This document shows, piece after piece, positions 148 through 60,204 of a DNA stretch of 64,000 bases. This stretch comes from Octopus vulgaris (lineage: Eukaryota), in contig OX597828.1 of NCBI GenBank assembly GCA_951406725.2, positions 3,100,001 to 3,164,000 of the forward strand, given 5' to 3'. The notes beneath the pieces are model-generated. The model was not told where the DNA came from, searched no databases, and saw nothing but the letters and a program-made list of their open reading frames with translations. The stretch's first letter is position 1; each line of letters opens with the position of its first letter. The position numbers and the translations under genes were made by a program.

Positions 148-213
148 GGTCCCGGGTTGATTCGGGGTTAACCACAGTAAGTAAGGTACTCAATACATAG
201 CAGAGTAAAATTA

Positions 214-671
214 ATTTATTATATAGAAGGAGCTTCTACAGGACTAGTACTGTTTCATTCAAGAGAAATCTTCAGGAAGCTATTTAACAAGAATTGTATT
301 AGCATTTATACATTTAGGCAGGTTTAAAGGAGTGGTGGTGGGGGACTTTTGGGGGTAGGCATAGCGCAAAATATCATACTTGGGGAGTGGTCAAGGAGTC
401 AGTGGTAAGTTAGATGAAAGAATAGATAAATAAAAAAATAAAAAAATAAAAAAATAAAAAATAAAAAAATAAAATAAAAAAATAAAAAAATAAAAAATAT
501 AAAAAATATATATAAAAAATATATATATAAAAATATATATATAAAAAAATATATATATAAAAAAAGGGGGGATAGAGTTATAGGTAAATAAGGAGATTCT
601 CACTTATACCTATACACACATGTATACGTATCTACACACACATACATACATACACATATATATACACACAC

Positions 672-718
<47 letters not shown>

Positions 719-1596
719 CATATGTACACACATACATACATATCTACATACACACATACATACACCCGCCCACATATACAAATTTATACACATGCACATG
801 CCTATACCTGTCTACACATACACACACGTATATATGCATACACTCACTCCCATGCATGCACGCATACACACATGTATATATATATATATATATACCCACG
901 ACCACACATACATATATACACATAAAAATATATATTCATACGCACATACACTCATGCACACACAACACACCTAGTTCCCTATATACACATATTTACACCT
1001 ATATATACATACACCCACATACACCTATGTACACATATATATATATATAAACATATACACGCATACATATATATACATGTGTGCACATACATACATACAC
1101 ACATATATACATACACATACACATACACATGTGTACCTATACATACCTACACATACACACATACATACATACAAATATACATATACATATATATATATAC
1201 AATCCAATACAGGCCCATTCCCTAATTTTAATTTTATTATCTTCATTTATTACTTTTGTTATCTTTGATCGCTAGGGCTAAGAATCCTGGCAATGGCTGC
1301 ATGTCCATTTGTCTGTCTACTAGAAGGCAAGTACTCATTCCCGCACGCACACTCATTAGCACGTACATTCACCCATTCGTACACTCATACACATACACGT
1401 ACGCACGCGTTATATTCATACATACAAACATCTACATACGTTCACGTATATACACATACGTACTCGTACCTACAGATTCGTGTCTACACTTTAGGAGGCT
1501 AGTCTATACATATACACCAATAAATATACATATATATATATATACCCGCATATACATACACACACACACATATATACTCCTACATACAGATACATA

Positions 1597-1656
<60 letters not shown>

Positions 1657-1836
1657 CATACACATACACACATACATATACACACACATACATACACATA
1701 TATATACATACACAAACATATATACACACATATATATATACATACACACATACACACATACATACGTATACATACATACATACATCCATACATCCATACT
1801 TACATGCATTTATACGCATACACACACCCATCTATA

Positions 1837-1873
<37 letters not shown>

Positions 1874-2152
1874 TCACACATACATATACAAATCTACGCA
1901 CACACATACATACATACACGTATACGCATACACGCACATACACATATACATGCGTACCCATACACGTGCACACACGCACGCGCATCCATATATATACACA
2001 CACACACATATATATACACGTGTGCAAGCATACATACATACTCATACGCGCACACATACTTACAAATACATATATGCACACACTTACACACATATATATA
2101 CATACACATATACATGCATACATACATATATGCATACATACACACACGCACT

Positions 2153-2193
<41 letters not shown>

Positions 2194-2256
2194 TATATAC
2201 ATATATAGATATATATACACATACATACACATACACATACATACACACATATACAC

Positions 2257-2291
<35 letters not shown>

Positions 2292-2496
2292 TACATATAT
2301 ACACATATACATACATATACATACACACACACATACATATATACATATACACTGATACACATACCCATACATACACATGCATATACTTATATCACTACAT
2401 ACTCACATATATAAACATATATACATATACACACATACATATATACATGTACATACACATACGTATGCATATATATATATATACATATATATACAC

Positions 2497-2535
<39 letters not shown>

Positions 2536-2542
2536 TACATAT
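214..2542. repeat. Left arm of ~2.3 kb inverted repeat
   Basis: Reverse complement of 4755-7059; unique anchors match (e.g. 1262-1345 vs 5950-6032, 231-410 vs 6858-7042). Differences are mostly (TA)n length changes. Confidence 0.97.
231..281 (-). ncRNA. Type I hammerhead ribozyme (PLE 3' end, sense strand)
   Basis: Minus strand reads AGCUUC-CUGAAGA-UUUC UCUU GAAU-GAAA-CAG UACUAGUC CUG-UA-GAAGCU: 6-bp stem I, canonical core, weak stem II, stem III, GUA cleavage triplet. Confidence 0.85.
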
Positions 2543-2793
2543 ACACATATACATGTATACATACGCAAAAATGATACACATATATACACATACACACACA
2601 CAGACAGATGCATATACATACATATATATATATAAACTACATATCTATATAAATACATACATAATACACATATACACACACATATATATACATTCATGCA
2701 TATACATATACAAGTATACATACACATACATACACACACACGCGCACACATACATATACACACACACATATACAAATACATACATACACACAT

Positions 2794-2826
<33 letters not shown>

Positions 2827-3195
2827 CATACATGTACACATATACATATGTATATATATATCAACAAGGGAGGGTAAAGTTAATTAGTTATTAATCAATT
2901 TCATCAAGTGTTCAGTATGTAAAGGGACCATTATTATTTTGAGTAAACAATGTTAGAGGGAAAAAAATTCTCTAAGTAGTGGAAGAGGCTAAAAAACTTT
3001 ATTGGCTGCTATTTCTAGAAAGTTTAGTATGTGGCAAAGTAATTTATTTTATTTTCCTAAGCCCTAATTATATAATATTTTATACATACATACACATACA
3101 TAAGCACATACATTTACACATACATATGCATATACATATATACACATATACATACAAACACATATACACATATACACACACACACACATACAAGC

Positions 3196-3236
<41 letters not shown>

Positions 3237-3465
3237 AATATATATACATATATATTTTTACATGCATACATACACACACACACACATAATACATGCGTAT
3301 ATTCCTACTGTACCCATGCATTTCTATACATATATACATACATACATACGATACACATATACAAGCGTGCACATATAATATGTGAAAGGTCTTAGGAGAA
3401 AAGGTAATCGGGGGTGCTAGGGGAACAGTGGGGTTGGGGGGGGGGTTGTAGGGGGGGGGTTGTCA

Positions 3466-4128
3466 TCAATCAGGTTGCCGGGTAGGTCTATAGTTCTTGT
3501 AGTTCGCATACTTCTTATGCATGCAATTTGGGGAGTGTTCTGAAAATTTGTTAAGGAGAGGGCCTTTGGCGAACAAGATCTCTAGGCTCTCTGATATGCA
3601 TAGGTCACAGCAGGTATGTCCTCCTGTGTACGAGCGCGCCTTCTGTAGTAGTTTCCACTTGGTCTTGAAGGGGATTGAGTTCCTTTTAAGGTACCAGATG
3701 TGGGCGGCGAGGGTAGTTTGGTTGGATTTATCCTGTCGCCGGAACGAGTGTGTATGTGCATACCAGCGGGTCTTAAAGCTGTTTGACGTCATTCCAATGT
3801 AGGATTTACTTTTATCGTCAAGGCCTGATCTTACCTCGCATTTATATACTAGGTCCCTCTGTAGGCAGTTGTTGTTGAGGGGGCAGGTGGTTTTATCATG
3901 GCAGTTGCAATTGCTATCGGACGTTGGATGGGCCCCGGAGAAAGTAGATATGTTAAGTTTTTTCACATTGTTGTTGGCTAGGTTCCTGGCTAGGTTGGGC
4001 GTGGTAGAGTAGGAGAGTCTAATAGTGTTCTTATTTAGGATAGTGTAGTACTTATGTTGGGTGGGGAAGTGTTTCTGTAGGAGAGTGAAAAAGATCTTAG
4101 CTACAGGTGTAGCGACCTCACGGTTGAA
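3466..4128 (-). pseudogene. PLE linker + GIY-YIG endonuclease domain (continuation of the RT ORF after a 1-nt frameshift)
   Basis: Open frame from 4128 (FNREVATPVAKIFFTLLQKHFP...) into ORF 3466-3966: CNC..CPLNNNC, LVYKC...SYIGMT..FKTRW..H (GIY-YIG) and CDLCISE...CMH. I associate this motif pattern with the Naiad-type PLE clade, but the clade call needs a phylogeny. Confidence 0.88.
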
Positions 4129-4751
4129 GGGGGGTTGTACCAGCTAATGTGTCTTCGTCTATTTTTCCTGGGTTGGCGTGGGGCTATACTAGTGTAGGTA
4201 ATCTTATCTTTAAAACCACTGCGGGCCAGGGCCTCGTTGTAATAGGGGGCTGCGGCCTTAAAGATATCTTCCGTGGCGGACAGGCTAGAGATTCTAATTG
4301 AGACACTTTTTACTAGGTTATCTAATATATTTCTGGGGTGGTTGGAATTGATATCTATATATCTAAGGGATTCATTTGGTTTGTGGTACGGGTAATAAAG
4401 TGAGGTTTTTAAGTCGAGGGTGACATCTAGGAAGTTAGCCTTAGTTAAGTTGGATTCTAGGGTAATCCTAAGGCCTAAGTTTTTAAAGAAGGTGTGAAGA
4501 TTTTTCCGGAACCCATCCGTGGTCCTGGGGTTTATATTGTGGAGGGCGAAAAGGCCGTCATCTCGGTAAAGACCACCGGAGAGGCCTGTGAATAGGGTTT
4601 TCAGCCTATGGAGGATGAAAAGGCCCACTAGGTCACTTATTTCAGCAGAGTCGTTAGCACCCATGCTGACGTCGAAGGGGGTCACAGATTTTTTGTTGAT
4701 CCAGTGGGATCCGTCATAGAAAAGAAAAGTCTTACGTGCGTGGAGGATCAC
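4129..4751 (-). pseudogene. Penelope-type reverse transcriptase, C-terminal part (5'-truncated)
   Basis: ORF 4101-4751 contains MGANDSAEISDLVG, GGLYRDDGL (catalytic), NFLDVTLDL, YHKPNE..YI..SNHP and WYNPP motifs typical of PLE RTs. The N-terminus is cut at the inversion junction (~4754), and the frame shifts in the G6 run at 4129-4134. Confidence 0.9.
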
Positions 4752-4754
4752 ATC

Positions 4755-4761
4755 ATATGTA

Positions 4762-4802
<41 letters not shown>

Positions 4803-5009
4803 GTGTATATATATGTATATATATATATATATGCATACGTATGTGTATGTACATGTATATATGTATGTGTGTATATGTATATATGTTTATATATGTGAGT
4901 ATGTAGTGATATAAGTATATGCATGTGTATGTATGGGTATGTGTATCAGTGTATATGTATATATGTATGTGTGTGTGTATGTATATGTATGTATATGTGT
5001 ATATATGTA

Positions 5010-5046
<37 letters not shown>

Positions 5047-5109
5047 GTGTATATGTGTGTATGTATGTGTATGTGTATGTATGTGTATACATATCTATAT
5101 ATGTATATA

Positions 5110-5151
<42 letters not shown>

Positions 5152-5428
5152 TGCGTGTGTGTATGTATGCATATATGTATGTATGCATGTATATGTGTAT
5201 GTATATATATGTGTGTAAGTGTGTGCATATATGTATTTGTAAGTATGTGTGCGCGTATGAGTATGTATGTATGCTTGCACACGTGTATATATATGTGTGT
5301 GTGTGTATATATATGGATGTGCGTGCGTGTGTGCACGTGTATGGGTACGCATGTATATGTGTATGTGCGTGTATGCGTATACGTGTATGTATGTATGTGT
5401 GTGCGTAGATTTGTATATGTATGTGTGA

Positions 5429-5465
<37 letters not shown>

Positions 5466-5645
5466 TATAGATGGGTGTGTGTATGCGTATAAATGCATGT
5501 AAGTATGGATGTATGGATGTATGTATGTATGTATACGTATGTATGTGTGTATGTGTGTATGTATATATATATGTGTGTATATATGTTTGTGTATGTATAT
5601 ATATGTGTATGTATGTGTGTGTATATGTATGTGTGTATGTGTATG

Positions 5646-5699
<54 letters not shown>

Positions 5700-6569
5700 T
5701 ATGTATCTGTATGTAGGAGTATATATGTGTGTGTGTGTATGTATATGCGGGTATATATATATATATGTATATTTATTGGTGTATATGTATAGACTAGCCT
5801 CCTAAAGTGTAGACACGAATCTGTAGGTACGAGTACGTATGTGTATATACGTGAACGTATGTAGATGTTTGTATGTATGAATATAACGCGTGCGTACGTG
5901 TATGTGTATGAGTGTACGAATGGGTGAATGTACGTGCTAATGAGTGTGCGTGCGGGAATGAGTACTTGCCTTCTAGTAGACAGACAAATGGACATGCAGC
6001 CATTGCCAGGATTCTTAGCCTAGCGATCAAAGATAACAAAAGTAATAAATGAAGATAATAAAATTAAAATTAGGGAATGGGCCTGTATTGGATTGTATAT
6101 ATATATATGTATATGTATATTTGTATGTATGTATGTGTGTATGTGTAGGTATGTATAGGTACACATGTGTATGTGTATGTGTATGTATATATGTGTGTAT
6201 GTATGTATGTGCACACATGTATATATATGTATGCGTGTATATGTATTATATATATATATGTGTACATAGGTGTATGTGGGTGTATGTATATATAGGTGTA
6301 AATATGTGTATATAGGGAACTAGGTGTGTTGTGTGTGCATGAGTGTATGTGCGTATGAATATATATTTTTATGTGTATATATGTATGTGTGGTCGTGGGT
6401 ATATATATATATATATATACATGTGTGTATGCGTGCATGCATGGGAGTGAGTGTATGCATATATACGTGTGTGTATGTGTAGACAGGTATAGGCATGTGC
6501 ATGTGTATAAATTTGTATATGTGGGCGGGTGTATGTATGTGTGTATGTAGATATGTATGTATGTGTGTA

Positions 6570-6616
<47 letters not shown>

Positions 6617-7053
6617 GTGTGTGTATATATATGTGTATGTATGTATGTGTGTGTAGATACGTATACATGTGTGTATAGGTATAAGTGAGAATCTCCTTAT
6701 TTACCTATAACTCTATCCCCCCTTTTTTTATATATATATTTTTTTATATATATATTTTATATATATATTTTTTATATATATTTTTTATATTTTTTATTTT
6801 TATTTTATATTTTTTTATTTTTTATTTTTTTATTTTTTTATTTATCTATTCTTTCATCTAACTTACCACTGACTCCTTGACCACTCCCCCAAGTATGATA
6901 TTTTGCGCTATGCCTACCCCCAAAAAGTCCCCCACCACCACTCCTTTAAACCTGCCTAAATGTATAAATGCTAATACAATTCTTGTTAAATAGCTTCCTG
7001 AAGATTTCTCTTGAATGAAACAGTACTAGTCCTGTAGAAGCTCCTTCTATATA

Positions 7054-7059
<6 letters not shown>
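4755..7059. repeat. Right arm of ~2.3 kb inverted repeat
   Basis: Reverse complement of 214-2542. It begins immediately after the truncated RT 5' end and ends in (TA)n. Confidence 0.97.
6992..7042 (+). ncRNA. Type I hammerhead ribozyme (copy in inverted arm)
   Basis: agcttc(6992-97) ctgaaga(6998-7004) tttc-tctt-gaat gaaa(7017-20) cag-tactagtc-ctg ta(7035-36) gaagct(7037-42). Identical to the 231-281 copy. Confidence 0.85.
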
Positions 7060-7112
<53 letters not shown>

Positions 7113-21525: not shown

Positions 21526-21531
<6 letters not shown>

Positions 21532-21698
21532 TTCGGAATGGTCATTTTGCCAGTTTAGCCAATAAAAACACACGCACTATATATTTAGTGCTATTTTGCT
21601 TCAGTGTTATTTATTTTTTACATTAATCTTAATCTTATTTCGGCCAGAGTTCTTTCGTCACACTCCTGTGACCGCAAAATGACCATTCCGAAATATAA
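21526..21698. repeat. Short element with 25-bp perfect inverted repeat between (TA)n tracts
   Basis: ttatatttcggaatggtcattttgc (21526-50) / gcaaaatgaccattccgaaatataa (21674-98). Confidence 0.85.
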
Positions 21699-21755
21699 CA
21701 ATATCTGTTTCAACACGACTTCACATAAAAAATCTTGCACAACAAATATTTAAAC

Positions 21756-21793
<38 letters not shown>

Positions 21794-21931
21794 AAATACA
21801 AGGTAGCTAAATGTTGCTTAAGTTTCCCCGGATTTAATTCCGAGATAATAAGTCGTATTTAATAGTAAATAGGAAAATTGAATGAGGAGACGAAGGCTCA
21901 GGCTGTTGTTAAACCATTTATATCTTGAAGT

Positions 21932-22016
21932 CTTCTACATATGTTTCGATGGATGCACTCCAAGAATGTCCGACAGGATAAATTATGGTCAGCAATACAT
22001 CAATCTCATCAGGAAG
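21932..22016 (-). ncRNA. Type I hammerhead ribozyme with long stem II and palindromic minimal stem III
   Basis: Reverse complement of 24417-24501 with one substitution in stem II: CUUC-CUGAUGA-GAU..AUC-GAAA-CAUAUG-UA-GAAG. Confidence 0.85.
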
Positions 22017-23729
22017 GATATAAATAAGAAACTCGTCAAACAGACATGTTAACAGAAAAAGAAAGTCCTATAAAATACAACGTATTTATATTCATATGCA
22101 CACGCGCGTACACACACTCAAATATGTGATGTGTAAATATAAACATAATATACAGACAAAAAACACAAACGTATATACACATATACATACGCAGGCATTA
22201 ATATAATACACATACACACACGTATATATATAAATGCACACTCACGCATATATATTATATAAACATATACATAATTATATTCATACAAACACACATTCAT
22301 AAATATTCAAATACATACATATATAGGCAGAAATATACTCACACTCATATAATATAATATCTACACATATACTCGTACATACTCTTGCAGCAAAGACATA
22401 GAAACATACTTGTGCTAAAATATATGTTTACGATCTCATACTTCTTATGCACATAAACAAACGATCATATACATACCCAAGAGCACACACACCCCAAAAC
22501 ATCGCTAGACCCAAACACATAATTGTATACACATACACACACTTACTTAAGCACATATGCATTATTGTTCATTCACAAAATACTTACATATGAACAGGGG
22601 ACGCTAGGAATTTAAATTGACGTTATCGAAACAAACTAGATATTGAGAGAGAAGATGTATAGAAAGATAGGGAGGAGGAAAGAAAGGAAGGATAAAACAA
22701 AGTAAGAGAGAGAGGAGAGGAACGTGCAAATTGTAAATATAAAAAATGCATGAAAAGGAAGGAAAGAAGGAGAGAGGGGGGAATTATGGGAAGTAAGATG
22801 GAAGAAAAAAATAAAGAAAATTTGCAGAAATTATTATTAGGTTATGGGGAGAAATTATTTGAAAGAACTAAAAAAGTGTTAGTTCAAAGGAAACATTTAG
22901 AAACTCACACTCACTCTCATAAGCATATATAACTACACATATACTAATACATATTCCTACTTCAAACACGCAGATCCACACATATGCTTTAATAGACGTT
23001 TACGATCTGTCGCTTATAAACATAAACAAACGTTCACACACATACAGAAGAACACACACATCCTAAAACAACGACAGACAGAAACACACTATAATAAACC
23101 CATACACACTAAGAATATATACATTATTGTGCACACCGAAATATACAAACGTACGATAGCAAAAACGGGTATATACGCATATATGTATATGGAGAGCCAG
23201 GTAGTAGGGTAACTCTACAAATTTACAATGGTTTTAAGGAAATTAACTAGATTGGGTAAGAGAAGGAGAAAAGGAATGGAAAGATATGGAACAAAAAAAA
23301 AAAACGAAGTAAAAAGCGAGAGTGAAGAGGAACAGGGGAATTGTATACATGAAAATGCATAAAAGAAAAGTAAAGAAGGGAGAGTAAAGGCTATGGGAAG
23401 ATGGAAGAATAAAGAAAAGAAAATTTGCAGAAAATATTATTAGCTTACAGGTGGATATTATTTGAAAGAAGTAAAAGAGTGTTTTTTCCAATGAATGCAT
23501 TTGTAAACTCTCTCTGTAAATTTGTTTACCAATATGTGTTTAGAGGGGAGAATAAAATAATGCTCTTCCGTGCATAAAGGACAGAAATATTTCCCTTTAT
23601 CATAAGGAATGTGTACGAGTATATGTTTAGATATATATGCATATGTGTGTGAGTATATTTCTGCCTATGGATGTATTTGAATATATAAGTAAGTGTATGT
23701 ATATATATGTATATATTTATGTATATGGT

Positions 23730-23783
<54 letters not shown>

Positions 23784-23861
23784 TCTGAAAAGTTAGAGAA
23801 TGCAAGTCGGTAGAATCGCACATGCTTCTAACGATATGTACTTCTAGGATAACAAAGGCTG

Positions 23862-23934
23862 CTTACTGAAGAGTCTAGCCTTGGCAGATAAATTATATTT
23901 TTCTGCTAAAAAAAAGACGAAACTGCAGTATAAG
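23862..23934 (+). ncRNA. Type I hammerhead ribozyme with palindromic minimal stem III
   Basis: ctta-ctgaaga-gtct...(ttggcaga/tctgctaa)...agac-gaaa-ctgcag-ta-taag. Stems I and II are perfect; predicted cleavage after A23930. Confidence 0.85.
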
Positions 23935-24124
23935 ATGAGCCGAGTTTGTAAACGTTTTTGATTTTCATTTCATTGAATTTATCCACTTTTTGTGTATCTA
24001 GTACTTGCTTCTTTTAGAGGCCTTTTAATGTACTTATATATGAATAACGTATAGTCTAATGACTAATTTGTCTTTTGTGCTAGATCACTGGTAATAATAA
24101 TTTATTTTATTACCCTTTTTACTA

Positions 24125-24203
<79 letters not shown>

Positions 24204-24416
24204 GTATATATGTATATATTTATGTATATATATATATATGTTTATGTACATGTGTGTATACGTTTGTGTTTTTTGTATGCATATAACGTTTATATTTACA
24301 CGTTCACATAATTGAGTGTGTGTACGCGCGTGTGCATATGAATATAAATACATTGTATTTTGTAGGACTTTCTTTTTCTGTTAACATGTCTGTTTGACGA
24401 GTTTCTTATTTATATC

Positions 24417-24501
24417 CTTCCTGATGAGATTGATGCATTGCTGACCATAATTTATCCTGTCGGACATTCTTGGAGTGCATCCATCGAAACATATGTAGAA
24501 G
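24417..24501 (+). ncRNA. Type I hammerhead ribozyme
   Basis: cttc(24417-20) ctgatga(24421-27) gattgatgcatt...agtgcatccatc gaaa(24486-89) catatg ta(24496-97) gaag. Confidence 0.88.
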
Positions 24502-27500
24502 ACTTCAAGATATAAATGGTTCAACAACATCCCAAGTGTTCGTTTCCTTATTCAATATATATATATTCATATGTGTGAGGTAATAAAAGAAAATAATACT
24601 TAACACATTTGGTTAGGCTTCATTATTTAATAACAATGTAACACAGCTCAATAGTAGTCAAAATGTCATGGACGTGGGACAAGTCCATATCGTTAGCTTG
24701 ATCAAACTATGGCTCTCTTGTAATTTCATCGCAGATCATATATCGAGAGAATCAAATTTCTAAAAAGTGCCCGAAACATTAGATACTTCTACTTTTCATA
24801 GCAAATCACTGACGCATCCACGAATTCCCTTGTGGATGTAGCTTTGTTGGCAGATCGCCATCACTGTGTGAGTTCGTGTGCTTATGTGGTGAGGTGGAGT
24901 ATTCGAACACCTACGAGCGTTAAGTTCTGTTTTACTAATATCTCATATTCACACTCGAGATTTTGCATTGGACTATTTTTTCCCATTATTGGCTCAGAAC
25001 TTCGAAGAGAGTCTGTAATGACTGAAAGTTGAGTAGATTCTGGTCCTGAAAAAGAATCTGGAAATAGAGTCTAATTTCTGCTCTTAGCGTCGTGTGGTCT
25101 TCCAGAAAGATCATCGAATATGATGGAAGTTCTGCCGAATTGGTGACAGTTTCAAGTTATTCATGAGAACCAAAGAAGTATAAAGTTTAGTGAAGTTAAT
25201 CAGATATATGCAATAAATGTGTTTTTGTGTTACAACACTAATACAGTTACTACACGTTTTGATTATTTTCATGTTCCTAAAAGCATGTTTTGAAAATATT
25301 TCTTTGTAGATGTGAAACCTAATAGACACCCGGCGTCTAGACTGTGAATGAATGATGACTGTGTAGGAATATTTATAAGTTTGAAAGGTTGAATTATGTG
25401 GGTGGAAATATATGTGGTTAGAATCGACGAAAAAAGTATTGTTTATGTATAAGAGAGAGAGGGTGTATTGGAGAGGATAAGAGAGTAATGAGCTACACTA
25501 GAATTAATAGCGTTGAGGTCGAAAACCCCCGGCAAAAGCTTGTCTATTCACGCTACAAAGAAGCGGTATAATTGGAAAATTCCGATTCAAGGCACAATCT
25601 ATAGATGGTATACAGCAATAATATTAGTTTCTCTGACGTTTTTAAAGATGAAAACATGAATAGAGGACTTAAGAGAGCGAGTCTCTAATAAATCTTACTG
25701 TACAGAAATAATATTGGTTGGTGGTAACTGTGAAAAAAGAATGAATTTGGTAAAGAAGCGCAATAGATCAGTTGCTTGTTAGGTGTAAGAACTGTCTTAG
25801 CAGAAGATGAGATTTACTGTAGACACATCCAGAAATATTTTTACAAGTTATGTGACGTCATGTATAATTAAACTAGATCGATGTATATTAAATCAGCATC
25901 ACATTCTTTAAATAACAAAATGTTTATAAAGTGTCAGTACCTAAATGAGAGAGCACTTGACAAGAATACTTGCCTGAAGAGAGTCTAAATACACTCAAAC
26001 AGTAGTTTATTTCCTGATCACGTCTCATAAACTGAAATTTTGAAGCAACACAATTTTCACAGCAAGACTAAGTATGTTTACTGAACACTCAACAGTTTAC
26101 GTTATGTGTTCTGTGGTGAAATTTATTATTAATTGCAATTGGTGAGAAACGACAATAATCGTTGTTTGTTTGTCTCCGATACCCTGTTGTACTCTACTAG
26201 TGGGTAGTAAAATTCAGGGGAAAAAGGAGACAACGAGAGAGGTGAGAGAGAAAAGAAAATATAGAAAGATAAAGTGAATACAAGTCAAAGAGAAAGAATA
26301 GAAGTGAAGTAGAAAATGAAACGATGAATAAATGAAAAGTAATTTATTTGTGACCATGATCGCCCCACTCCCCATTTACGAGAATGGTATTTGATGATTC
26401 GTGAATGAAAATAGTCATACTTCCCTTAGACAAGTTACAGGCTTTTTATGTAAAGGGAAATGGGGTAAACAGTTGATCCGAAACAATATATACGTTCTTA
26501 TTTGATTGATCCCGTAAAGATAAAAAGCAAAGTTAATCCAAGTGAGATTTGAACGCCGAAATGTAATGCACCAGCTAAAGGATCGTAGACTATAATAAAA
26601 TTCTGCATTCTATCATTTATGTCAGTTCTATGTCCCCTGTGATTAAGAGTTCTAACGAGTTCGTTTGGTCAGAAAAAGGATGCTTTTTGTAAAGGGATGG
26701 AATACAGTGTATCAAATCACCCGCAATAGCTCACACTATTTCAACTGTGTTAATAATCTGATTTTAATAAAACGATAATAATGAGTATGAAAATTGATTC
26801 TATATTTTGTTTTAGTATTGTTAAGTTCTCACGAGAGGTTTCACTAAGGATCTCCCTTGTTAATACAAGAATGCAATTAAACTCTACAATAGAGTAGTTT
26901 TTCATTTTCTGGTCTCACGTAAAATGACGATGACAACTCAATTACGACTGAATTTAATTTCGACTTTTATATTTATTTTTTCATTGATTTTCTTGAAATC
27001 AGTTTTGATATAATCGCCATTAATTTTAATAGATATGTAACCCTAGAGTGGTTTCATAGATTTTAAAGATTTAAACATATTTTCTCTAAAAATGCCATCA
27101 CATCTTGTTACAGTATAGCTAATACCTTTCGTTGCTTGGTATATTTCTCCTTCGTCAGTGTTCATTACTTTTCTTAGACATTAAATAAATCAGTTGGGGG
27201 TTTCTATATCTGATATCCTTGAAAATTAGTGGTATTTTATTTAGCTCTCAGTTACTTTGTGTTAGACCTTTACACTGCAAGATTTTTATATTAATTTTTT
27301 ATTCTTTCATAACAATCTCACGTGAATTTCCTTGTTTTGAACAATGTTAATTGGGAGGAGGATGAGTGCAAATTTTTATTCACTGTTTCACAGCAGGCCC
27401 AACAACCATTTTAATAATGAAGTATGTTTTAAAAGTCTAAACTGTAATAACTCTCATTTCTCAATACTTAAACTAAAGATACTTTTACAATTCAAAGAGA

Positions 27501-32630: not shown

Positions 32631-34090
32631 TGATAAATAATTTCCGAAAATTCTTGATCTGAAAATCTAGTCATACAAAAGGTTGCTGGTTTGAAATAAT
32701 CCCTAGAGGAAGAATAGAACCCTCAATCATATATGATCAAAATGCACGGAGAAAAAGAGGGATCATTCTCCCTAAATTCTTTCAGTATTCACCTACCATT
32801 AAGTAGTGAAGTTATTTCGAACAGTTGTTGCAAGGACGGATCCAACATTAAAGCACTTGGAAAATTCCTTCCACCTATTCACGTGGTAAAGAGAAGCAAC
32901 TTGTTTTTCTCAGATCGGTCACTCTGGTGAAAGAGGCTTATGAAGGAACGATGTTTAAAAGACTGCTAAAAAATTGTTTGTTTGCTGGCAGCCTCTCAGT
33001 TATGCATAATTGATTTTATTATATTGTTTATGACTATGACACTGAATAGTTATATAGATTGTTACTTTAATTTATTATATCGCGCCTGGAATCTCTGTTC
33101 TGTATGGGTATTACAGAAGCAATCTTTCAAGAGATGAAAAATAAAAAGCAAGCTATTCACGATATTCGTTCAGAATTTTGCTTGGTTACATATTTATCAC
33201 AATCGTTTGCTCTATTAGGTCTCAGCTGTGTTATGTCTCGTCAACACTGTTATGTCCTTTTTTGAACTGTATATGCCACTTTATATTGTGGACTTGTAAC
33301 AAGGCTATAACAATACAAATATAAATCAGAAATAACACGTCACAAACAATATCTCGTCTCAACGACTTCTACGACTGTCTTCATAAAGCGCCTGCAGACA
33401 CTACACCGCCCCTCACTGACAGTGCGCATGCGCTTTTATACGGTTTAAGACAGTTGACTTGCTATCCCACAGGGGTGTCAGGATTTCACCACAACATCTC
33501 CCCTTTTTGCGTTTGACTTTCGTTGAAAGTCAATATTTTTCTTTTAATTATTATCTTCATTACCATTTCTCCCCACTTTCTTTTTTTTCAATTCCTCATG
33601 AAGAAATTGGAACATTTCTTTCGTTTTGGATCTTCTTGCAAAAATTCTGTTTGCTTTCTTTTCCTAGTCGTTGGTTCGATTATTTCTTAAGGTACCAGGA
33701 CGTCAAAAATGTCATAAAGAAAATCCATTGACTCTTCATATCTTATTCTTTCTTCCGTAAATCTTTTTTTTTTTTAGTTGGTTTAGGTGTCGCTTGTGTT
33801 CCCACATATGAACTTTTACCATGTACGTTATTTTTCCTAAGCGTTTACTTATTATACTTCTTCACAACTTTCCTTTCTGTTTCTATATATTCAAAGAAAA
33901 AACAACCTTGTCACCGATTTTGAAGTATTTCATCGTTTCTTCGATGTTTCTCTCCGTTTTTTCTTTTCTTTCCGGTAGTAATTTGTCAAACACTGACCTG
34001 ACTTCCTTGGCGAACATTAGTTCAGCTGACGACATACCTGATGTGGTGTTGGGGTTAGGTGTTATTCGGTAGACACTTAAGAATTGCGTC

Positions 34091-34485
34091 TTACTTGTAC
34101 TTGTGGCGACATTCACCCTGGGCGGGTTGAATGGGCTTCTTCCACCACCCTCGAGGCATTGTACTCGCCCTTGAGAATTCATGGAAGAAGTTTCGCGGGA
34201 ATATGTGGATTTGATAAGCGGTCCCCAACAATCCCGCATGTAGAGACATCCTGTTTGCCGCAGATTGTCCGCAGACGCAGAGGCAGGACGACCGAGGAGC
34301 CGCCGGTTGCCGAAACAGACACTCCGAGGATTTTCTGCCGGGTTGTGGCCCTAATACCACTCGGTGTCAGACCAATCCGCCTTAGGTGGCCCTACCAGGA
34401 ACCGAAGTTCCCGACGGCATAGCTCTGTCACTACCCGTTGCCAGCGTCCCCACCACGGTGAGGAGGGGATGGACTTTGGAGACGC
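34091..34485 (-). mobile_element. Non-autonomous RTE-derived retroposon nested in the Gypsy integrase
   Basis: Perfect 12-bp TSD aagaattgcgtc (34079-90, 34486-97); RTE 5'-UTR-like motif gagctatgccg...gtagggccacctaaggcgga..ggtc; caagtacaagtaa tail. Confidence 0.75.
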
Positions 34486-35084
34486 AAGAATTGCGTCAAT
34501 GCAGTGTCAGCTAGATTTTTCAGCACCCTTTTAAACGTGTCTACGAAACATTCCGTTGTCCATTCGATCTCGGATGGTATGGCGAGTAGTAATATACTCC
34601 ACTGCATGCATTGCGCAAAAGTTTTAAAATTCCTTTAACGTGAACTGTGTTCCGTTATCAGACACTACAGCGTCTGGGACGCCATATCGTGCAAAAAGTT
34701 GGTCCAGAAATGCTATCGTTACTTTGGAGGTTAGCTTCCCACATATTTCCGGCCATTTCGTGTAACTATCCACGACTATTAGATAATATCACCCATCTAA
34801 CGGTCCTGCGAAGTGTATGTGTAAGCTTCACCAATGTACATCAGTGTTGGGCCAAGATTGAATTTTTACAGGTGGTGCCTTTGCTGCCAGGGCTCAACCA
34901 TTGCAGGCTTTCACCAATTCTTCAATATCCTGATCCATATTCAGCCAGTATACATAGATTCTCATCAATGCGTTCATTCTCGCAATTCTTGGCTGTCCCA
35001 TGTGGAATTCTTTCAACAGACGGTTTTGCAAAAAACAAGCATTACAACCCTCTGAGCGTACATAAGTATGTCGTCATATATCGA

Positions 35085-35462
35085 ATACCTATTTATTTAC
35101 TACCCACAAGGGGCTAAACACAGAGAGGACAAACAAGGACAGACAAACGGATTAAGTCGATTATATCGACTGCAGTGCATAACTGGTACTTAATTTATCG
35201 ATCCCGAAAGGATGAAAGGCAAAGTCGACCGCGTCGGAATTTGAACTCAGAACGTAGCGGCAGACTATAAACCCCCTGTTTCTTTATTACCCACAAGGGG
35301 CTAAACACAGGGGACAAACAAGGACAAACAGACGGATTAAGTCGATTATATCGACCCCAGTGCGCAACTGGTACTTAATTTATCGACCCCTAAAGGGTAA
35401 AAGGCAAAGTCGACCATACCGCTCAGCATTTCGCCCGACGTGCTAACGTTTCTGCCAGCTCG
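35085..35462 (-). mobile_element. SINE family C, partially duplicated, nested in Gypsy
   Basis: Two tandem copies of tacccacaaggggctaaacacag...atcgac..cagtgc..aactggtacttaatttatcga, plus the head at 35420-35462. Confidence 0.85.
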
Positions 35463-36853
35463 ACGCCTTCATATATCGAATACCATTTCGAAACTGTATT
35501 ACGGTCGGTTACATGAGTTTTTTTATTTGTTTCAAACTTCACTATTTTTTTCATTTTTATTATGAACGCATCTTCCTCTGCTTTAATTTTTATTTCTTCT
35601 AAAGTGACAGGTAGTTCGCGTACTACGTTGCAGAGTATATTTTTTATTTGGATTTCGGCTTTTAATGCCACCATTACCATGTTCTCTAACAGTTCATTGT
35701 ATTTAGTAATCAATCTTAGCAGCCCATCCGCGTGTCCTAATTTTTTCAATGGTAGAAATTCCATCTTTAAATCATGATTTAGCAGGATAGTCCCCAGCGC
35801 TGCAATCGCTTGGCTGTATGCGTCGGGATACCCCTTTTTGATCCGTAAATTGATAACAATGGGCGGTGATCTGTTTGCAGACTGAATTTCCTTCCCTGTA
35901 TGAATTTGTGAAATTTTTTCACCGCAAAAATAATGGCCAGTGCCTCCTCAATTTGGCTGTAGTTTTTTTCAGTGAAGTGAAGCATGAACTATGGGTTTTA
36001 CGCTACCATTTTCATACTTGTGTTAAATTACCTCTACTATACCACTTTCGTCAGCATCAACAAGTTTTTTATTTGGATCTAAGTGCGATAATGACAGTTC
36101 CGATTTTAAAACTTTAAAAAATTTCTTCGAACGCTTTTTCACACCAGACTGGCCAATACCATTTTACGCCTTTTCTCAATTGGTTGTTTAGGAGTGCTCT
36201 TAGCTCATGCATGTTTGGTAATAGTTCGCGAGCCCTAAGAACGCTTGTAATGGTGTAATATTTTTCGGAGTAAGCATATTTTTTATTGCCGTCGATCTTG
36301 AAGGATGTTGCCTGCGACCATTTTTATCAATACTTTATTTCTGGCATAAAAATTCACATTTCCCTTCGCTAAGTTTGAACCCATACACCTTTATCTTCTC
36401 AAAAACCATTTTAACATGTTACTCATACTGATCTAACTTTCTAACTTTCTAATTGTCCAGCTTTCCTCAGGCCACCGGTCAATTTTCACACAACACTTAC
36501 ACATCAAATGAAGAAAGCAAAATCACTTTTACCGACTTCACAAAAGTACACTGGAACAAGTGCTACCAAGAAACGCAAACAAGCTTTTTGTTAATCATCA
36601 ACAAAATCCTTATCATTGACACTGCAGCAAACACAATCGGCAGAATAATTATAAACGTACCCGCAAACATATTTCCCAAAGCAACAAAGAGAATATCACC
36701 CAATTAAACATCAGAAATAACCAACTTCATAAGAATCAGCAACATCTGCAGCACAGTTTTCCACAAAATCTCACTCAACTGAAATAAAACTCAAACATAT
36801 ATACAAAGAAATAAGAAATAAAATAAATCATTGAAAAGCAGAAATGGTAAAAA

Positions 36854-45895: not shown

Positions 45896-46735
45896 CGAGG
45901 TATCAAAAGGTTCCCGGACTCGGTTGGTTTAATAAAAAATAACTTATTTACCGAAGCTTTAATATCGTCTGCCTGGAAATAGTCACCTTGCGCAGCAATA
46001 CGCCGGTCCCAGCATCCCTGTCACTTTGCAATCCGGCCTGGAAATCGTTTTCCGTAAGCGAGTCGAGGAGCTTCTGTGATTCGGTCCGGATCTTGACAAG
46101 GTTGTTAAAACGGCGATCTTTGAGCTGTCTTTTCATTTTGGGTAAGAAATGGAAGTCCGCAGGTGGCAAATCTGGCGAATAGGGCGGGTACGGAAGCGAT
46201 ACCATGTTGTTTTTGGCGAGAAACTCAGGAGTGAGAAGAGCTCGGTGACAGGATGCTTTGTCGTCGTGAAGAATCCAATTCTTCGCTCTCAGATCCGGTC
46301 GCTTTCGCCGAATATACCCCCTCAAACGCTTCAAAACAACACAGTAGAACGCTCGAGCGACGGTCTCGCCCTGGGGGATAAATTCTCGATGCACAATACC
46401 ACATTTCCGGGGGTGACGCTCGTGGCAGATCTTCCAGATCCCTTATCGTCTACTAGAGACGTTCTTCTGCTTTTGAAGCGCCCGTGCCACTCTATACATT
46501 GTATAGACCCATTGCTTCGGCGCCGTAAGCTTGCAAAAGCATGCTCAATGTCACTGTAGCAGTCTTCCCAAATTTAACACAAATTTTATGCTGGCTCTTT
46601 GTTCCAACTTCCTGTCCATGACAAAATCGCAGAGTACAACATACACGTGACCACAAGAACACAAATTTCACAACGAAATAAACACAGCAATGTTATGCGG
46701 CACATTGCTTCATGAAGGCCACTGATAGTTCTCAT
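45896..46735 (-). mobile_element. mariner (DD34D) transposon remnant
   Basis: TA|CGAGG terminus at 45894-45900. ORF 45948-46394 contains WILHDDKASCH and YPPYSPDLPPADFHF; internally deleted. The right boundary is approximate. Confidence 0.85.
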
Positions 46736-52065: not shown

Positions 52066-53565
52066 TCACGAATGCTTTTTAGCAAATGCCATCTGGTGCA
52101 TGAGAGAGTTCGATGCAGCTGCCCTCATCTGTACCTCCCGCCGTGAATTTGGTTCATCTGGGACACCTGACAAGAAGAGATCCAGTTTCATTTTAAAGAC
52201 ATCTGCATCCACCCCATGCAGGTCTCTTAGGTTATTCGGGAGGATATTGAAGAGCTGTGGGCCTCGGAAGCCCAGGCTATCACAGTATCTTGTCCTACAT
52301 CTTGATGGCAAATTTGGAGTCCTTGGCACTATGCAGTGGCGCCCAATTCTGGCATTTGTGTAACTCTCGATGCCAAAGTTTGGGACAAGTCCTTCTAGGA
52401 TCTTCCAGATGTATACTATGGCATATCTTTCTCGCCTACGCTCTAAGGAATAGAGTCTCAATCTCTTGAGTCTTTCCCAATAGCTTATATGCTGCACAGA
52501 GGCTATCTTCTTCGTGTAGCTTCGTTGGATCGCCTCAAGTTCTGTGATTAACTTGACACTGGATGGTGACCATAGCTGAGAGCAATAGTCAAAGTGGCTT
52601 AGGACAAGTGTCCTCCAGAGGACCATCATGGTTTCCTGGTCTCTTGTTCTAAAGGTTCTAAGAATCCATCCGGTCAGCCGCCTACATTTCATTGCCAATT
52701 TAGCAACATGCACATGAAAGGTTGCATCATCACTCATGTAAATACCCAGGTCTCGCACTGATTGTGCCACTGGGATTGCAATCCCTAGGGGTCCAGTGTA
52801 TTTATCGGGTATTGCATTTAGTTTTGCATGCTGATAGTATAAAGCTTGAAACTTTTCAGCATTGAACTGCATGCTATTCTTTTCAGCCCACTTGTATATT
52901 TTGTCCAGCTCACATTGCAGGTGCTTAGTGTCTTCAGGGTTCTGTATTGCCTGTGAAACTTTTGTATCATCTGCATAACTTGTGATCGTGGCTTTCTGCG
53001 TGGCTGAGGGCATGTCTGTGAGGGCCATTATGAACAGTAGTGGTCCCAGAACTGTGCCTTGCGGAACACCGCTCACTATATGCGTGTTAATGGCTACTAC
53101 CACCTGACTTCTATCCTTCAGAAAGTCATGAAGCCATTCTCCCAATTTTCCAACTATGCCAAGATCACGCAGTTTGTGGCATATCATTCCATGATCGACT
53201 TTATCAAAGGCCTTTGCAAAGTCGAGATATATGACTTCCACATGTGAGTGGTTGAGCAGTCGTTTCAGCACCCAGTCATAGTGTTGTAGGAGCTGAGTTA
53301 AGCAGCTTCTTCCTGGTCGGAAACCATGTTGGGTGTCAGGCAGCAAGTCATTTTCTTCAAGGAAGGTGATTAGTTTCCTTCTGACTATTCGTTCCATGAC
53401 CTTGCTGATGTGTGAGGTCAGAGAGATAGGTTTGTAGTTCTTGGCCTCCGCTCTGCTACCTCCTTTATGAATAGGGCATATTTTACCTTCCTTCAGTTTT
53501 CTTGGAAGTTTGCCAGTTGCAAGGAAGCTCTGAAAGAGGAACTGCAGTGGTCTTGCTGTAATCAA
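52066..53565 (-). CDS. CR1/L2-group LINE reverse transcriptase, 5'-truncated (499 aa open frame)
   Basis: [56 protein letters not shown] and RDLGI motifs. Short 3' UTR to ~51986; (TA)n on both sides; an apparent small in-frame deletion before SGVPQG. Confidence 0.92.
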
Positions 53566-57298: not shown

Positions 57299-60204
57299 AG
57301 TATGTGTGTTTGTGTGTGTGTGTTTGTCCCTCACCATCGCTTGACAACCGATGCTGGTGTGTTTACGTCCCCGTAACTTAGTGGTTCGGAAAATAACCGA
57401 TAGAATAAGTACTAGGCTTACAAAAGAATAAGATCGACTGAAGGTGGTGCTCCAGCATGGCCGCAGTCAAATAACTGAAACAAATAAATGAATAAAAAGA
57501 GTAAGGAAATGCTTGTGGACCACCCACAAATAATCAGGACAGAACATGTGTCTCTCCTTCTCTTTGACAAATACGGCCTTGCTCAGAATAGGCAGTATAA
57601 ATGTATATGCTCTGGGATCGCCTTGGAAACAGGGCCAGCTACTCAGAGACTGGATTAGCGAATTAGTTAAACGGATATTGACGAGATCAATCCTCAGCAA
57701 CAAGTGGTGATTTGCCCTGTAAAGGGAAATTAGAACAGAATCGATTAGGGTAATCAAGGCATTAACGACAGAAGAGATAGAAGGCAACTTAGAAATGTAG
57801 AGGAGGCGTTTAAGAAAGGCATCGCAAACGACGTGCTGGCGGCGACATTGGCGCTGGTCCAATTCTTCAACGCTAAATACGAAGGATGCATTGTCAGAAC
57901 TAAGGAACGTTCTTTAAGAAACGAGAGAACGAAAGTCACTCGACGGGCTGAGTGGCAGAGGACCAACATTGAAACAGAGTTACAATTCAGTCTTTGGTGG
58001 ATTAAAATAGGCGCACGGTAGTCGAGCCTGATTAGGTGTGTACGGTATTTCAGCGGTACTTCGCTCAGCTGTTTGAGACGAATGACAGTCCTGAACGCAG
58101 GATAAACTTCAGTGCCTACCTCGACGGCAAGAGAGACGGAACGTTGCGAAATGTTGATAACAGCTGCGGAAATACGGGACGCAATGATAGACTGCATGGG
58201 GGTGGGATAAATCATCTGGTTTAGATGGTCTTGCTCACGAGCTTTACTTTTATGTGCCAAACTTGTTTGACGGCATCTTAGCAGATCTCTACCAGAATTG
58301 GCAGCAGAACAGGAGAATTCCCAGTTTTGTTAGTCGAGGAGCAGTGGTACGGCTGAGAAAGGATCCAAACAAGGGAGATCAAATAGAAAATTCTGGGCCT
58401 TTAACGCTGCTGAACGCAGATTTCAAAATTTTGGTCAAGGTGTTATCAAAGAGATTGACGATCTTCGAGAAGCTGATTGGTGATGCGCAAGCATGCGTCA
58501 TCCCATGTAGAGCCGTCAACGATAACCTCCACCTCATGCTATTCATCATACATAGAGTGGGTAAAGAAGCTGTGATGGGTGGATCTCTGATCAATTTGGA
58601 TAAATCTAAAGCCTTCAATAGGGCAAACCACCAATACTTTGCAGCCGTTCTCATAGTGATGGTTTCGGTCGCTTTTTCCGTGGTTTGATTGCTGCAATGT
58701 ACAACGACATCTGTTCAGTAGTTTGGATGAATGGTCACTTACCCGTCAAGGGCGTCTCCCCTCGTCTCTTCTGTATGTACTTGCTCTAGAGTCACTGCCG
58801 CCGAAACTGGAGATAGTAAGAGGCATCCGCACGAACTAAGATGTGGGAGAACCGTGTCGGCATACGCAGACGACGTCACCGTCATAGCGTCGAACACCAA
58901 AAAGATAGACTTGGTCGAGACCTAGTAGGACTGAGGTGGCGAATGTATACATCGCCTCCGCTATATATTACTGCCTGACCGTCGTGTCTGCCTCACTTTA
59001 TGTCTGACCAATTTAGAGCGCATACTCTTCCGCTTTCTGTGAAAGGGACCCTTTGCATTGGTCAGGCCCTGCGTTTGCTATGAACATCCGCTGAATGGAG
59101 GGCCGGGAATGTCGTGGCTAATGATGCGCAGACATGCGCTGAGGCTACATCTCTAGCACTTCCTTGACGATGAGCAGCTGCGGTTGCCGTTGGTCAGGAT
59201 TCGCTTTTCCACAGCTCGTCTTTTTGACTGAGATGCAGTTCTGGATAAAACGTAGACTAGGGACTGGGTGCCTGGCACATAAAGTGTTGTCTGGCGCTCA
59301 CAGCCCTCTCTCAGTCGGGAAGAGCGGTCGGTAGACGTTCAACTTTGGCGTCCCAGAAAGGGTTAGTGGAGGGCAAGTGTGACGACGTTCTCGGGGAAAC
59401 TATCGGCTGGTCTGTTCCGGAGGATTTTCGATCTGGGGCCTAAGGATGATTTCCAGAAATCTGTTGCCTGGCAATGCTACTTGGAAGCATTACCAGTTTG
59501 AGATAACCTCTACAGACATGGACGTACTGTCAGCCGGGCTTTCCCGAGATGCGCGCTGAGTGACGAAACTGTTCTGCAGGCTTTCGTCCAGTGCCCGAGA
59601 ATTGCTGACTTGTGGGTTTATGTTGAACACCTGTTGTCATGCGTAGGACGGATCCGGCTATCGTCTGACTTCACATTCCCCACCTCTGTCTTACTATAGT
59701 GCCGATCCTTCCACCGTCTCCCTCTGGACGAGGAGAGCAGGCAGTGTTTCTTTTTCTGGTGGCTTTAACGAAAGAGATTGCGTGGTGAACCAAATTGAAG
59801 GGATTGAAGACAAATACTTCCCTCTTTGGCCGAGCCTTCATCAACTTTTTCAAGTTTCACTTGGAAAAGAAAGTGAGGGTGGAGAGGGAAGTGCTGCTTC
59901 CCAGCAATCTTATGAAAAGCTTGGTGAATGTTGCAAGAATGGTCCGAGTTAACGGGCCTACTCAAAGAACGCACCTGAGGGTTGTAGGAGACTTGCCCTA
60001 GTGGTCAAGGAAACCGTAGTGTTTGTGGGGTCACTATAAGCACCCCGAGGAAATCTCACACTTTTGGGGAATTATTCAATCTTATAATTTATGCTACTGT
60101 GTTTTTTTTTTACTTATTATACGTCTTTTATGTAACCTCACATTGTATTGTCTTGTCCTGTCCCCAACGCTTTTCTGTGAACCCTTAGTGGTTAATAAAG
60201 AAAG
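55106..60204 (+). mobile_element. Near full-length decayed L1/Tx1-clade LINE flanked by (ATT)n
   Basis: ORF1-like remnants at 55870-56200; RT remnants PLTLLNADFKILVKVLSKRL, LINLDKSKAFNR and TVSAYADDV; C-terminal C..C...ET...F..C at ~59540-59600; aataaag then (ATT)n. (ATT)n also at 54980-55105. Confidence 0.8.
56981..57500 (+). mobile_element. SINE family B, full length, nested in the Tx1-like LINE
   Basis: ggcgcaggagtggctgtgtggtaag head, gagttcagtccc B-box, internal microsatellite, tail ggtggtgctccagcatggccgcagtcaaataactgaaacaaataaa. Confidence 0.88.

What the first reader, a model, noticed from the sequence alone, without database searches (positions are those of the whole stretch)
21790..24556. 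Second, non-coding element repeating the same architecture: tail, hammerhead, inverted hammerhead arm, (TA)n target
Seen: ~310-bp inverted arms each contain a canonical hammerhead with a long stem II and palindromic stem III (ACAUAUGU). The ribozyme-containing ~160 bp (21913-22070) differs at about one position between arms, while both flanking parts of the arms are clearly more diverged. The left-only tail has a short GC hairpin (cgga-tttaat-tccg) loosely like cccggg-ttga-ttcggg in the first element's tail. No ORF is present. Inference: a non-autonomous or heavily truncated PLE-mobilised family, with selection or arm-to-arm conversion focused on the ribozyme.
Basis: partly seen in the sequence, partly recalled or inferred. 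Interest (0 to 1): 0.74.

Follow-up and report, generated by a model that had tools for sequence, protein, structure and literature searches.

The report
Truncated Hydra-type Penelope, converted arms
This is an ordinary broken-off end of a Penelope-type jumping gene whose two mirror-image ends each carry a predicted self-cutting RNA motif, and those two motifs are nearly identical most likely because one end was recently copied over the other by DNA repair, not because the ribozyme is being preserved.

Summary
The arms, the two hammerhead motifs and the uneven divergence are real: 1 difference in 159 bp against 8/35 and 9/69 in the flanks. "No ORF" is wrong. 23458-23609 (-) holds the last ~50 codons of a GIY-YIG endonuclease, and related copies continue into reverse transcriptase with Hydra-clade motifs. 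The element is an old, 5'-truncated Hydra-type Penelope-like retrotransposon, one of several hundred copies. An inverted 3' copy, a one-sided tail, a 3' hammerhead and a (TA)n target are all published for this clade.

The identity peak (~210 bp, 21912-22121 / 24312-24521) is most likely one late arm-to-arm gene conversion. Both arms share rare derived bases, the tract runs 100 bp beyond the ribozyme, and 13 of 14 other arm pairs differ by 9-25% there. Catalytic columns are no better conserved than loop columns. Two independent runs carry both arms' alleles, so it is not an assembly artefact.

The scan found the one-long, one-short end pattern before in other families of this genome. Low interest.

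The parts
21757..21789 (.). (TA)n target at the long (tail) end
21790..23609 (-). Main body of the 5'-truncated Hydra-type PLE: EN remnant, long 3' UTR, hammerhead, tail
   Evidence: collinear matches in other copies (e.g. L008/L052, L053, L054, L057)
21790..21876 (-). Tail, present on this arm only; other copies' long ends run about 27-40 nt further
21826..21845 (-). Small tail hairpin; no significant likeness to the first element's tail
   Evidence: p=0.19
21926..22020 (-). Left type I hammerhead motif: core CUGAUGA 22012-22006; predicted cut after GUA at 21936
21912..22121 (.). Homogenised tract, left copy (likely gene conversion): 3 differences in 210 bp and 9 shared non-majority bases
22337..23510 (-). 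Old ~580-bp duplication in the 3' UTR (22337-22906 / 22909-23510, 66% alike); shared by other copies, so a family trait
23458..23609 (-). C-terminal ~50 codons and stop of the GIY-YIG endonuclease (CxxC-E...N-CxH); 5' truncation / inversion junction at 23609/23610
23610..23781 (+). Inner part of the inverted arm (mirror of ~22240-22385), ending in (TA)n
23782..24131 (+). Nested young insertion: 350 nt of a separate ~430-nt non-coding hammerhead repeat (retrozyme-like), with (TA)n on both sides
23860..23936 (+). Hammerhead of the nested element (Rfam RF00163, 24.2 bits, E=0.001, below the gathering score of 34); palindromic stem III ACUGCAGU
24132..24556 (+). Outer part of the inverted arm, ending at the family's short end (no tail)
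24312..24521 (.). Homogenised tract, right copy
24413..24507 (+). Right type I hammerhead motif: core 24421-24427; predicted cut after 24497
24557..24566 (.). Short (TA)n remnant at the short end

Best explanation
The element is a dead, 5'-truncated copy of a protein-coding Penelope-like retrotransposon with Hydra-clade motifs and an inverted copy of its own 3' end, and its near-identical ribozyme region is likely the product of one late gene-conversion event between the two arms. Shown: the EN remnant, the RT-EN link in related copies, the two classes of 3' end, the nested insertion, the identity peak and the shared derived bases. Inferred, first step: the element's endonuclease cut a (TA)n tract, and both DNA ends primed reverse transcription of element RNA, one at the long start site (tail) and one at the short start site ~100 nt upstream. 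The two incomplete cDNAs joined head-to-head at 23609/23610. Inferred, later history: the copy decayed neutrally by ~8-13% per arm. Late in that history a retrozyme inserted into the right arm's (TA)n, and, independently, a ~210-bp tract was copied from one arm onto the other, followed by about 3 new mutations. The tract covers the ribozyme likely because this is the best uninterrupted, non-microsatellite homology between the arms. In the source element the hammerhead likely cut the RNA near its 3' end, perhaps as a dimer through the palindromic stem III (untested).
For: EN remnant: 56% to an intact 778-aa RT-EN ORF; 150 of 150 scored genomic candidates match it. Collinear RT+EN+3' end+hammerhead arm in L158 (ORF residues 80-775) and L082; RT+EN+3' end in L087; a tail-bearing arm 87% like the window's, inverted next to RT, in L159. 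Closest-subfamily copies reach ORF residues 516-546 (L092, L083). End pattern: 12 of 12 scorable outward pairs (window included; 7 of 19 not scorable) have one long and one short end. Conversion: both arms share rare bases (21964 G in 0/40 other copies, 22028 G 1/37, 22035 G 2/37, 22059 A 1/35, 22078 C 1/30). Normalised to family mutability, 11.9 differences are expected in the tract and 3 are seen, p=5.5e-5 (boundaries chosen after the fact; boundary-free p=3e-5). No other copy among the 40 of 367 candidates scored is closer than 92%. Against family-wide selection; one shared base (21930) breaks a distal stem I pair that 21 of 43 copies keep. Not an assembly artefact: runs X1 and X2 (two studies) each hold both arm-specific alleles at 24352/24362 as separate contigs, and X1 has a double-depth shared contig 24363-24435 with no differences. 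Architecture published: PMC8557442, PMC3846280, PMC4209133, PMC11167929.
Against: Both arms keep an intact catalytic core, which only 9 of the 41 other aligned copies do. A random 210-bp tract would cover the whole ribozyme in 50 of 300 placements. Both points are mild and subject to ascertainment. One other pair (L205) also differs at only 2 of 81 sites, though one of its arms lacks the ribozyme's 3' half and I scored only 1 shared derived base. No intact ORF of this exact subfamily was found; RT links come mostly from sister copies 72-75% alike at the EN end. Four shared non-majority bases also lie in 22122-22190, where alignment is poor, so part of the sharing may come from the donor element. 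Only the 40 best candidates per search were scored. Clade placement rests on motifs, not on a tree.
Confidence: 0.85

Rival explanations
1. Selection at this one locus keeps both ribozymes, or a perfectly paired RNA hairpin, intact, for example as a co-opted cut or silencing signal in a host transcript; conversion is the tool of that upkeep.
For: Both cores are intact whereas 9 of 41 other copies are. The tract contains the whole motif. The locus interior is present with few differences in runs under four organism labels, so the insertion is old and shared.
Against: The tract extends 100 bp upstream of the motif and includes loop positions. Shared derived bases are not structure-preserving as a class, and one breaks a stem I pair. 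Run X2 has a G>A change at 24501 in stem I of the right arm. The active fold is 4-5 kcal/mol above the MFE.
Confidence: 0.06
2. The arms were copied from a donor that already carried the derived bases, the insertion is young, and the flanks are simply hypermutable (CpG and microsatellite-like).
For: Family divergence is somewhat higher in the flanks (0.113 and 0.117) than in the tract (0.083-0.089). Shared non-majority bases also occur in 22122-22190.
Against: The rate difference is 1.3-1.4-fold, while the arm difference is more than 10-fold (p=5.5e-5 after normalising). The inner arm differs at 22 of 144 columns. No close relative was found. A truly young pair, the first element of this window, is uniform: 6 differences in 2298 columns.
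Confidence: 0.05
3. A non-autonomous, non-coding retrozyme-like family mobilised in trans.
For: Most copies fetched are short 3' ends without coding sequence.
Against: The window copy itself ends inside the EN frame, and related copies run through EN into RT. No head-to-tail array of the arm was seen, apart from a partial tandem in L030/L220. The description does fit the nested 350-bp element.
Confidence: 0.02
4. The identical tract is an assembly or polishing artefact (reads of one arm corrected onto the other).
For: The tract is about one short read long.
Against: Independent runs X1 and X2 reproduce the arm-specific alleles beside a shared stretch; in X1 that stretch has double depth. In X3 and X5 the depth of the shared contig is intermediate, so its extent there is unclear.
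Confidence: 0.02

Closest known systems
Hydra clade of EN+ Penelope-like elements, e.g. Hydra-1_Obim and Penelope-13_HM (PMC8557442: section 11, passages, and supplement files S1/S2 part 2 read)
   Same: RT then C-terminal GIY-YIG EN; CxCX5C linker; DKT; CxxC and CxH around E and N; (TA)n targets; canonical type I hammerhead ~100 nt from the 3' end. Penelope-13_HM is listed with a 5'-truncated inverted copy and a hammerhead on each strand.
   Different: The hammerhead sequence differs from that listed for Hydra-1_oBim, and its stem II/loop II is far longer (~64 nt). The 3' UTR is long (~1.7 kb) with an internal duplication. The tail is ~90-110 nt against the usual 30-40. No sequence comparison with the published proteins was made.
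Penelope/Poseidon elements: PAc of Anolis (PMC11167929, parts 1-2 of 4 read) and Adineta Penelopes (PMC3846280, passages)
   Same: Inverted terminal copy, tail on one end only, two RT start sites defining the tail, nicking and extension of both strands of AT-rich DNA.
   Different: There the hammerhead and tail overlap the ORF start; here the hammerhead follows a long 3' UTR. No full 5' end of this family was recovered.
PLE hammerheads of metazoans (PMC4209133, parts 1-2 of 4 read)
   Same: Short palindromic helix III suited to dimers; pairs of motifs on opposite strands 100-700 bp apart, attributed to truncated PLEs.
   Different: Helix II here is longer, with an inner hairpin.
Animal non-LTR retrozymes (PMC7229834, passages; bioRxiv 10.64898/2026.07.22.740005, part 1 of 5 read)
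   Same: Fits the nested 23782-24131 element: non-coding, type I hammerhead, head-to-tail ~430-nt units in some copies.
   Different: Does not fit the host element, which carries coding sequence. RNA circles were not tested.

Membership tests
EN+ Penelope-like element | Single ORF with RT and C-terminal GIY-YIG EN upstream of the 3' repeat | tested here: met
   EN remnant in the window; collinear broken RT+EN+arm in L158 and L082. Pfam gave no family even for the intact relative, so the call rests on tblastn and motifs.
EN+ Penelope-like element | Inverted 5'-truncated copy next to the 5' end | tested here: met
   window; 18 further outward pairs
EN+ Penelope-like element | Tail on one end only | tested here: met
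   12 of 12 scorable pairs, 7 of 19 not scorable; the tail is longer than the published 30-40 nt
EN+ Penelope-like element | Direct pLTR upstream of a full-length ORF | tested here: inconclusive
   no full-length copy of this family found; the longest starts at residue 80
Hydra clade | CxCX5C linker before the EN | tested here: met
   matched in L082, L083 and L162, 3 of 15 loci scanned, most of which are broken or truncated
Hydra clade | DKG changed to DKT | tested here: met
   QSDKT in L158 and in the intact relative L121
Hydra clade | CxxC and CxH flanking the conserved E and N of the EN | tested here: met
   in the window's own remnant and in L082, L087, L158
Hydra clade | CCHH motif absent from the EN core | tested here: inconclusive
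   no Cys pair seen around the YIG in printed translations; not tested against a reference alignment
Hydra clade | N-terminal RWK motif | tested here: inconclusive
   RWL in the relative L121; this family's N-terminus was not recovered
Hydra clade | (TA)n insertion and a canonical hammerhead near the 3' end | tested here: met
   many short ends abut (TA)n or (CA/TG)n
Hydra clade | Groups with Hydra in an RT phylogeny | not tested
   reference proteins were not available as tool sequences
Type I hammerhead ribozyme (host arms) | Core CUGANGA / GAAA / NUH with three helices | tested here: met
   (86% of cells paired against 28-41% when slid)
Type I hammerhead ribozyme (host arms) | Covariation support or Rfam hit | tested here: not met
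   covariation equals shuffles (248/500); no Rfam hammerhead hit for the right arm
Type I hammerhead ribozyme (host arms) | Self-cleavage | not testable with these tools
   needs an in vitro assay
Non-LTR retrozyme (host element) | No coding sequence; tandem hammerhead units | tested here: not met
   EN remnant and RT-linked copies
Non-LTR retrozyme (nested 23782-24131) | Non-coding unit with a type I hammerhead, in head-to-tail repeats | tested here: met
   RF00163 E=0.001; tandem in L037, unit ~430 nt; no RT/EN match at E<1e-3 in 19 other loci with 1.5-kb flanks, one weak E=0.007 hit
Non-LTR retrozyme (nested 23782-24131) | Expressed as circular RNA | not testable with these tools
   needs RNA data

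The most novel reading that the evidence does not exclude
At this locus a dead Penelope insertion has been co-opted: conversion plus selection keeps two opposite-strand hammerheads intact and paired, acting as a strand-independent RNA cut site or hairpin silencing trigger in a host transcript.
Probability: 0.06. Interest if true: 0.65.

Novelty: new member of a known kind. Interest (0 to 1): 0.2.

Why it matters
It matters modestly. It adds a Hydra-type PLE family with an unusually long hammerhead stem II and a ~100-nt tail. It extends the one-long, one-short end rule to a protein-coding family (12 of 12 scorable pairs), which supports priming from both cut strands at two fixed RNA sites. It is also a caution: arm-to-arm identity can be reset locally by conversion, so it is not a safe clock or a sign of ribozyme selection. 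If the co-option reading were true, it would be a host-maintained ribozyme pair derived from a PLE.

Tried and rejected
Whole-window repeat and Rfam scans were swamped by microsatellites. MFE folding gave no support for the host hammerheads (z 0.55 and 0.05); the nested one gave z -2.1. Pfam gave no relevant family for the remnant, the first element's frames or the intact 778-aa ORF. The protein atlas could not take the query. Expression: no RNA holder listed. The first read-laying mixed in other family copies and no contig spanned the locus; it could not tell whether the nested insertion is polymorphic. Conversion triggered by the nested insertion was considered and rejected: the 69 bp nearer the insertion site differ at 9 positions. 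Tail homology between the first and second elements was not significant. Junction microhomology is at most a few bases and was not established. L224/L022 was dropped as a pair because its 3' ends face inward; L010, L021, L204 and L225 were dropped from the tract count for fewer than 80 shared sites. In one search eight older-subfamily loci and one segmental duplicate were left out of the majority count. Literature: the search Penelope + gene conversion + inverted + pLTR returned 1 paper, whose single 'gene conversion' passage I did not read; a general palindrome-conversion search was seen as a listing only. I therefore do not claim that arm conversion in PLEs is unreported. Supplements of the bioRxiv retrozyme preprint were not seen and might list the nested family.
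Full report
OBSERVATION. Alignment of the arms confirms an inverted repeat 21877-22190 / 24556-24243. Differences by region: 8/35 (21877-21911), 1/159 (21912-22070), 2/51 (22071-22121), 9/69 (22122-22190). With the 20 differences permuted over 314 columns, a 159-column stretch with at most one difference has p=1.8e-4 and a 210-column stretch with at most three has p=3e-5. Each arm holds a complete type I hammerhead core, on the minus strand at the left and on the plus strand at the right, with the palindrome ACAUAUGU and a GUA triplet. Rfam does not detect the right-arm motif, the active fold is 4.4-5.4 kcal/mol above the MFE, and covariation among 43 copies equals shuffles. The motif is therefore a predicted ribozyme. 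The tail hairpin exists, but its likeness to the first element's tail is chance-level (p=0.19).

ANATOMY. Two things were missed. First, 23461-23616 on the minus strand is an open frame matching the last 52 residues of an intact 778-aa RT-GIY-YIG ORF elsewhere in the genome (56%, E=5e-14). The body 21790-23609 is thus the 3' 1.8 kb of a coding element, cut off inside its endonuclease. Second, the inverted arm starts right at that cut (~23610, mirroring 22385 downwards; 122 matches, 22 mismatches) and is split at its (TA)n by 23782-24131. That insert belongs to another family (1762 candidates, 40 scored, near-full-length matches 88-97%). It has its own hammerhead (RF00163, E=0.001), head-to-tail ~430-nt units in L037, no RT/EN match at E<1e-3 in 19 other loci, and only 5 of 348 positions off its family majority. 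It is a young retrozyme-like insertion.

FAMILY. The host arm has 374 candidates in the 2.8-Gb genome; the best of the 40 scored are 81-90% alike. Related copies link this 3' end to coding sequence. L158 carries ORF residues 80-775, the EN end and the hammerhead arm in line, and L082 does likewise; L087 links RT to the EN end; L159 has a tail 87% like the window's, inverted against RT. The closest-subfamily copies L092 and L083 reach residues 516-546. All of these are broken; no intact ORF of this subfamily was found. Motifs CxCX5C, DKT and CxxC-E...N-CxH are those given for the Hydra clade (PMC8557442 section 11). That paper's supplement lists an octopus member with (TA)n preference and a hammerhead ~100 nt from the 3' end, and a Hydra member with an inverted 5'-truncated copy and hammerheads on both strands. 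The 3' ends fall into a short class (~21866-21877) and a long class (at or beyond 21790). Of 19 outward-facing pairs including the window, 12 could be scored at both ends, and all 12 have one long and one short end, with the tail on either the main or the inverted arm. This matches the published one-sided tail and the two internal RT start sites and two-strand extension shown in vitro for PAc. Earlier notes of this scan reported the same pattern in other families of this genome; I took the twin-priming wording from them and tested it on this family.

THE IDENTITY PEAK. Against 40 main-subfamily copies, both arms share 9 non-majority bases in 21912-22121, several of them rare (21964 G 0/40, 22028 G 1/37, 22035 G 2/37, 22059 A 1/35, 22078 C 1/30). 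In the flanks each arm has its own 4-5 private changes. Scaling by family mutability predicts 11.9 of the 20 differences in the tract; 3 are seen (p=5.5e-5). Shared derived bases with few private ones are what copying from one arm to the other leaves behind; purifying selection would instead keep both arms near the family majority. A young donor subfamily is unlikely: nothing closer than 92% was found, and a truly young pair, the window's first element, is uniformly alike (6/2298). The peak is not a family trait. Of 14 other pairs with at least 80 shared sites, 13 differ by 9-25% there, and one (L205, 2/81) may be a second tract but lacks half the ribozyme on one arm. Catalytic columns (92.3%) are no better conserved than loop II (91.9%). 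Against my reading: both window cores are intact while only 9 of 41 other copies are, and a random 210-bp tract covers the whole motif in 50 of 300 placements. Runs X1 and X2 from two studies show both arms' alleles at 24352/24362, X1 shows a double-depth shared contig over 24363-24435, and X2 has a stem I change at 24501. The tract is therefore real; its extent in X3 and X5 is unclear.

MECHANISM. Shown: truncated coding element, inverted arm, two end classes, nested insertion, local homogenisation. Inferred: an endonuclease cut in (TA)n; priming from both ends at two RNA start sites ~100 nt apart; head-to-head joining; neutral decay; a late retrozyme insertion and, separately, one late conversion tract. 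That inverted repeats convert each other is general knowledge, recalled; the search was seen as a listing only. Untested: cleavage, dimer dependence, transcription.

VERDICT. A new member of a known kind: a Hydra-type PLE remnant with published architecture, plus an incidental conversion tract and a nested retrozyme. Interest 0.2. The co-option reading is not excluded (probability 0.06).

Noticed in passing
   Followed up: partly
window 148-7090: First element: young PLE (arms differ at 6 of 2298 columns) with RT and EN at 3466-4754 (-) and a CxC-type linker; its hammerhead motif also shows at the end of the intact 778-aa element in L121.
   Followed up: partly
window 21531-21700: Short inverted repeat (~25-bp matching ends) between (TA)n tracts just left of the element; extremely high depth in sequencing runs, so a very abundant family.
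   Followed up: no
window 27864 (-) and 30270 (+): Two further CUGANGA...GAAA motifs followed by a shared TTGTGTTAACAACAAACAAGA stretch; likely a fourth, minimal-hammerhead PLE-related family.
   Followed up: no
L121:2287-4620 (G000:C1): Intact 778-aa RT-EN frame with Hydra motifs; three loci show 778-aa open frames, so a young family.
   Followed up: partly
L205:4716-6496: Second arm pair with only 2 differences in 81 sites, split by a LINE fragment; possible second conversion tract.
   Followed up: partly
window 22848-23032: ~184-bp segment present in the window and a few copies (L057, L065) but missing in many others (L008, L053, L054); two structural variants of the 3' UTR.
   Followed up: no
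window 33883-35947, 45948-46442, 52066-53565, 58191-58688: Frames that look, from recalled motifs only, like LTR-element, mariner transposase and LINE RT fragments.
   Followed up: no
L089:6897-9900 and L082:1023-2517: Long Ser/Thr-rich mucin-like open frames near family copies.
   Followed up: no
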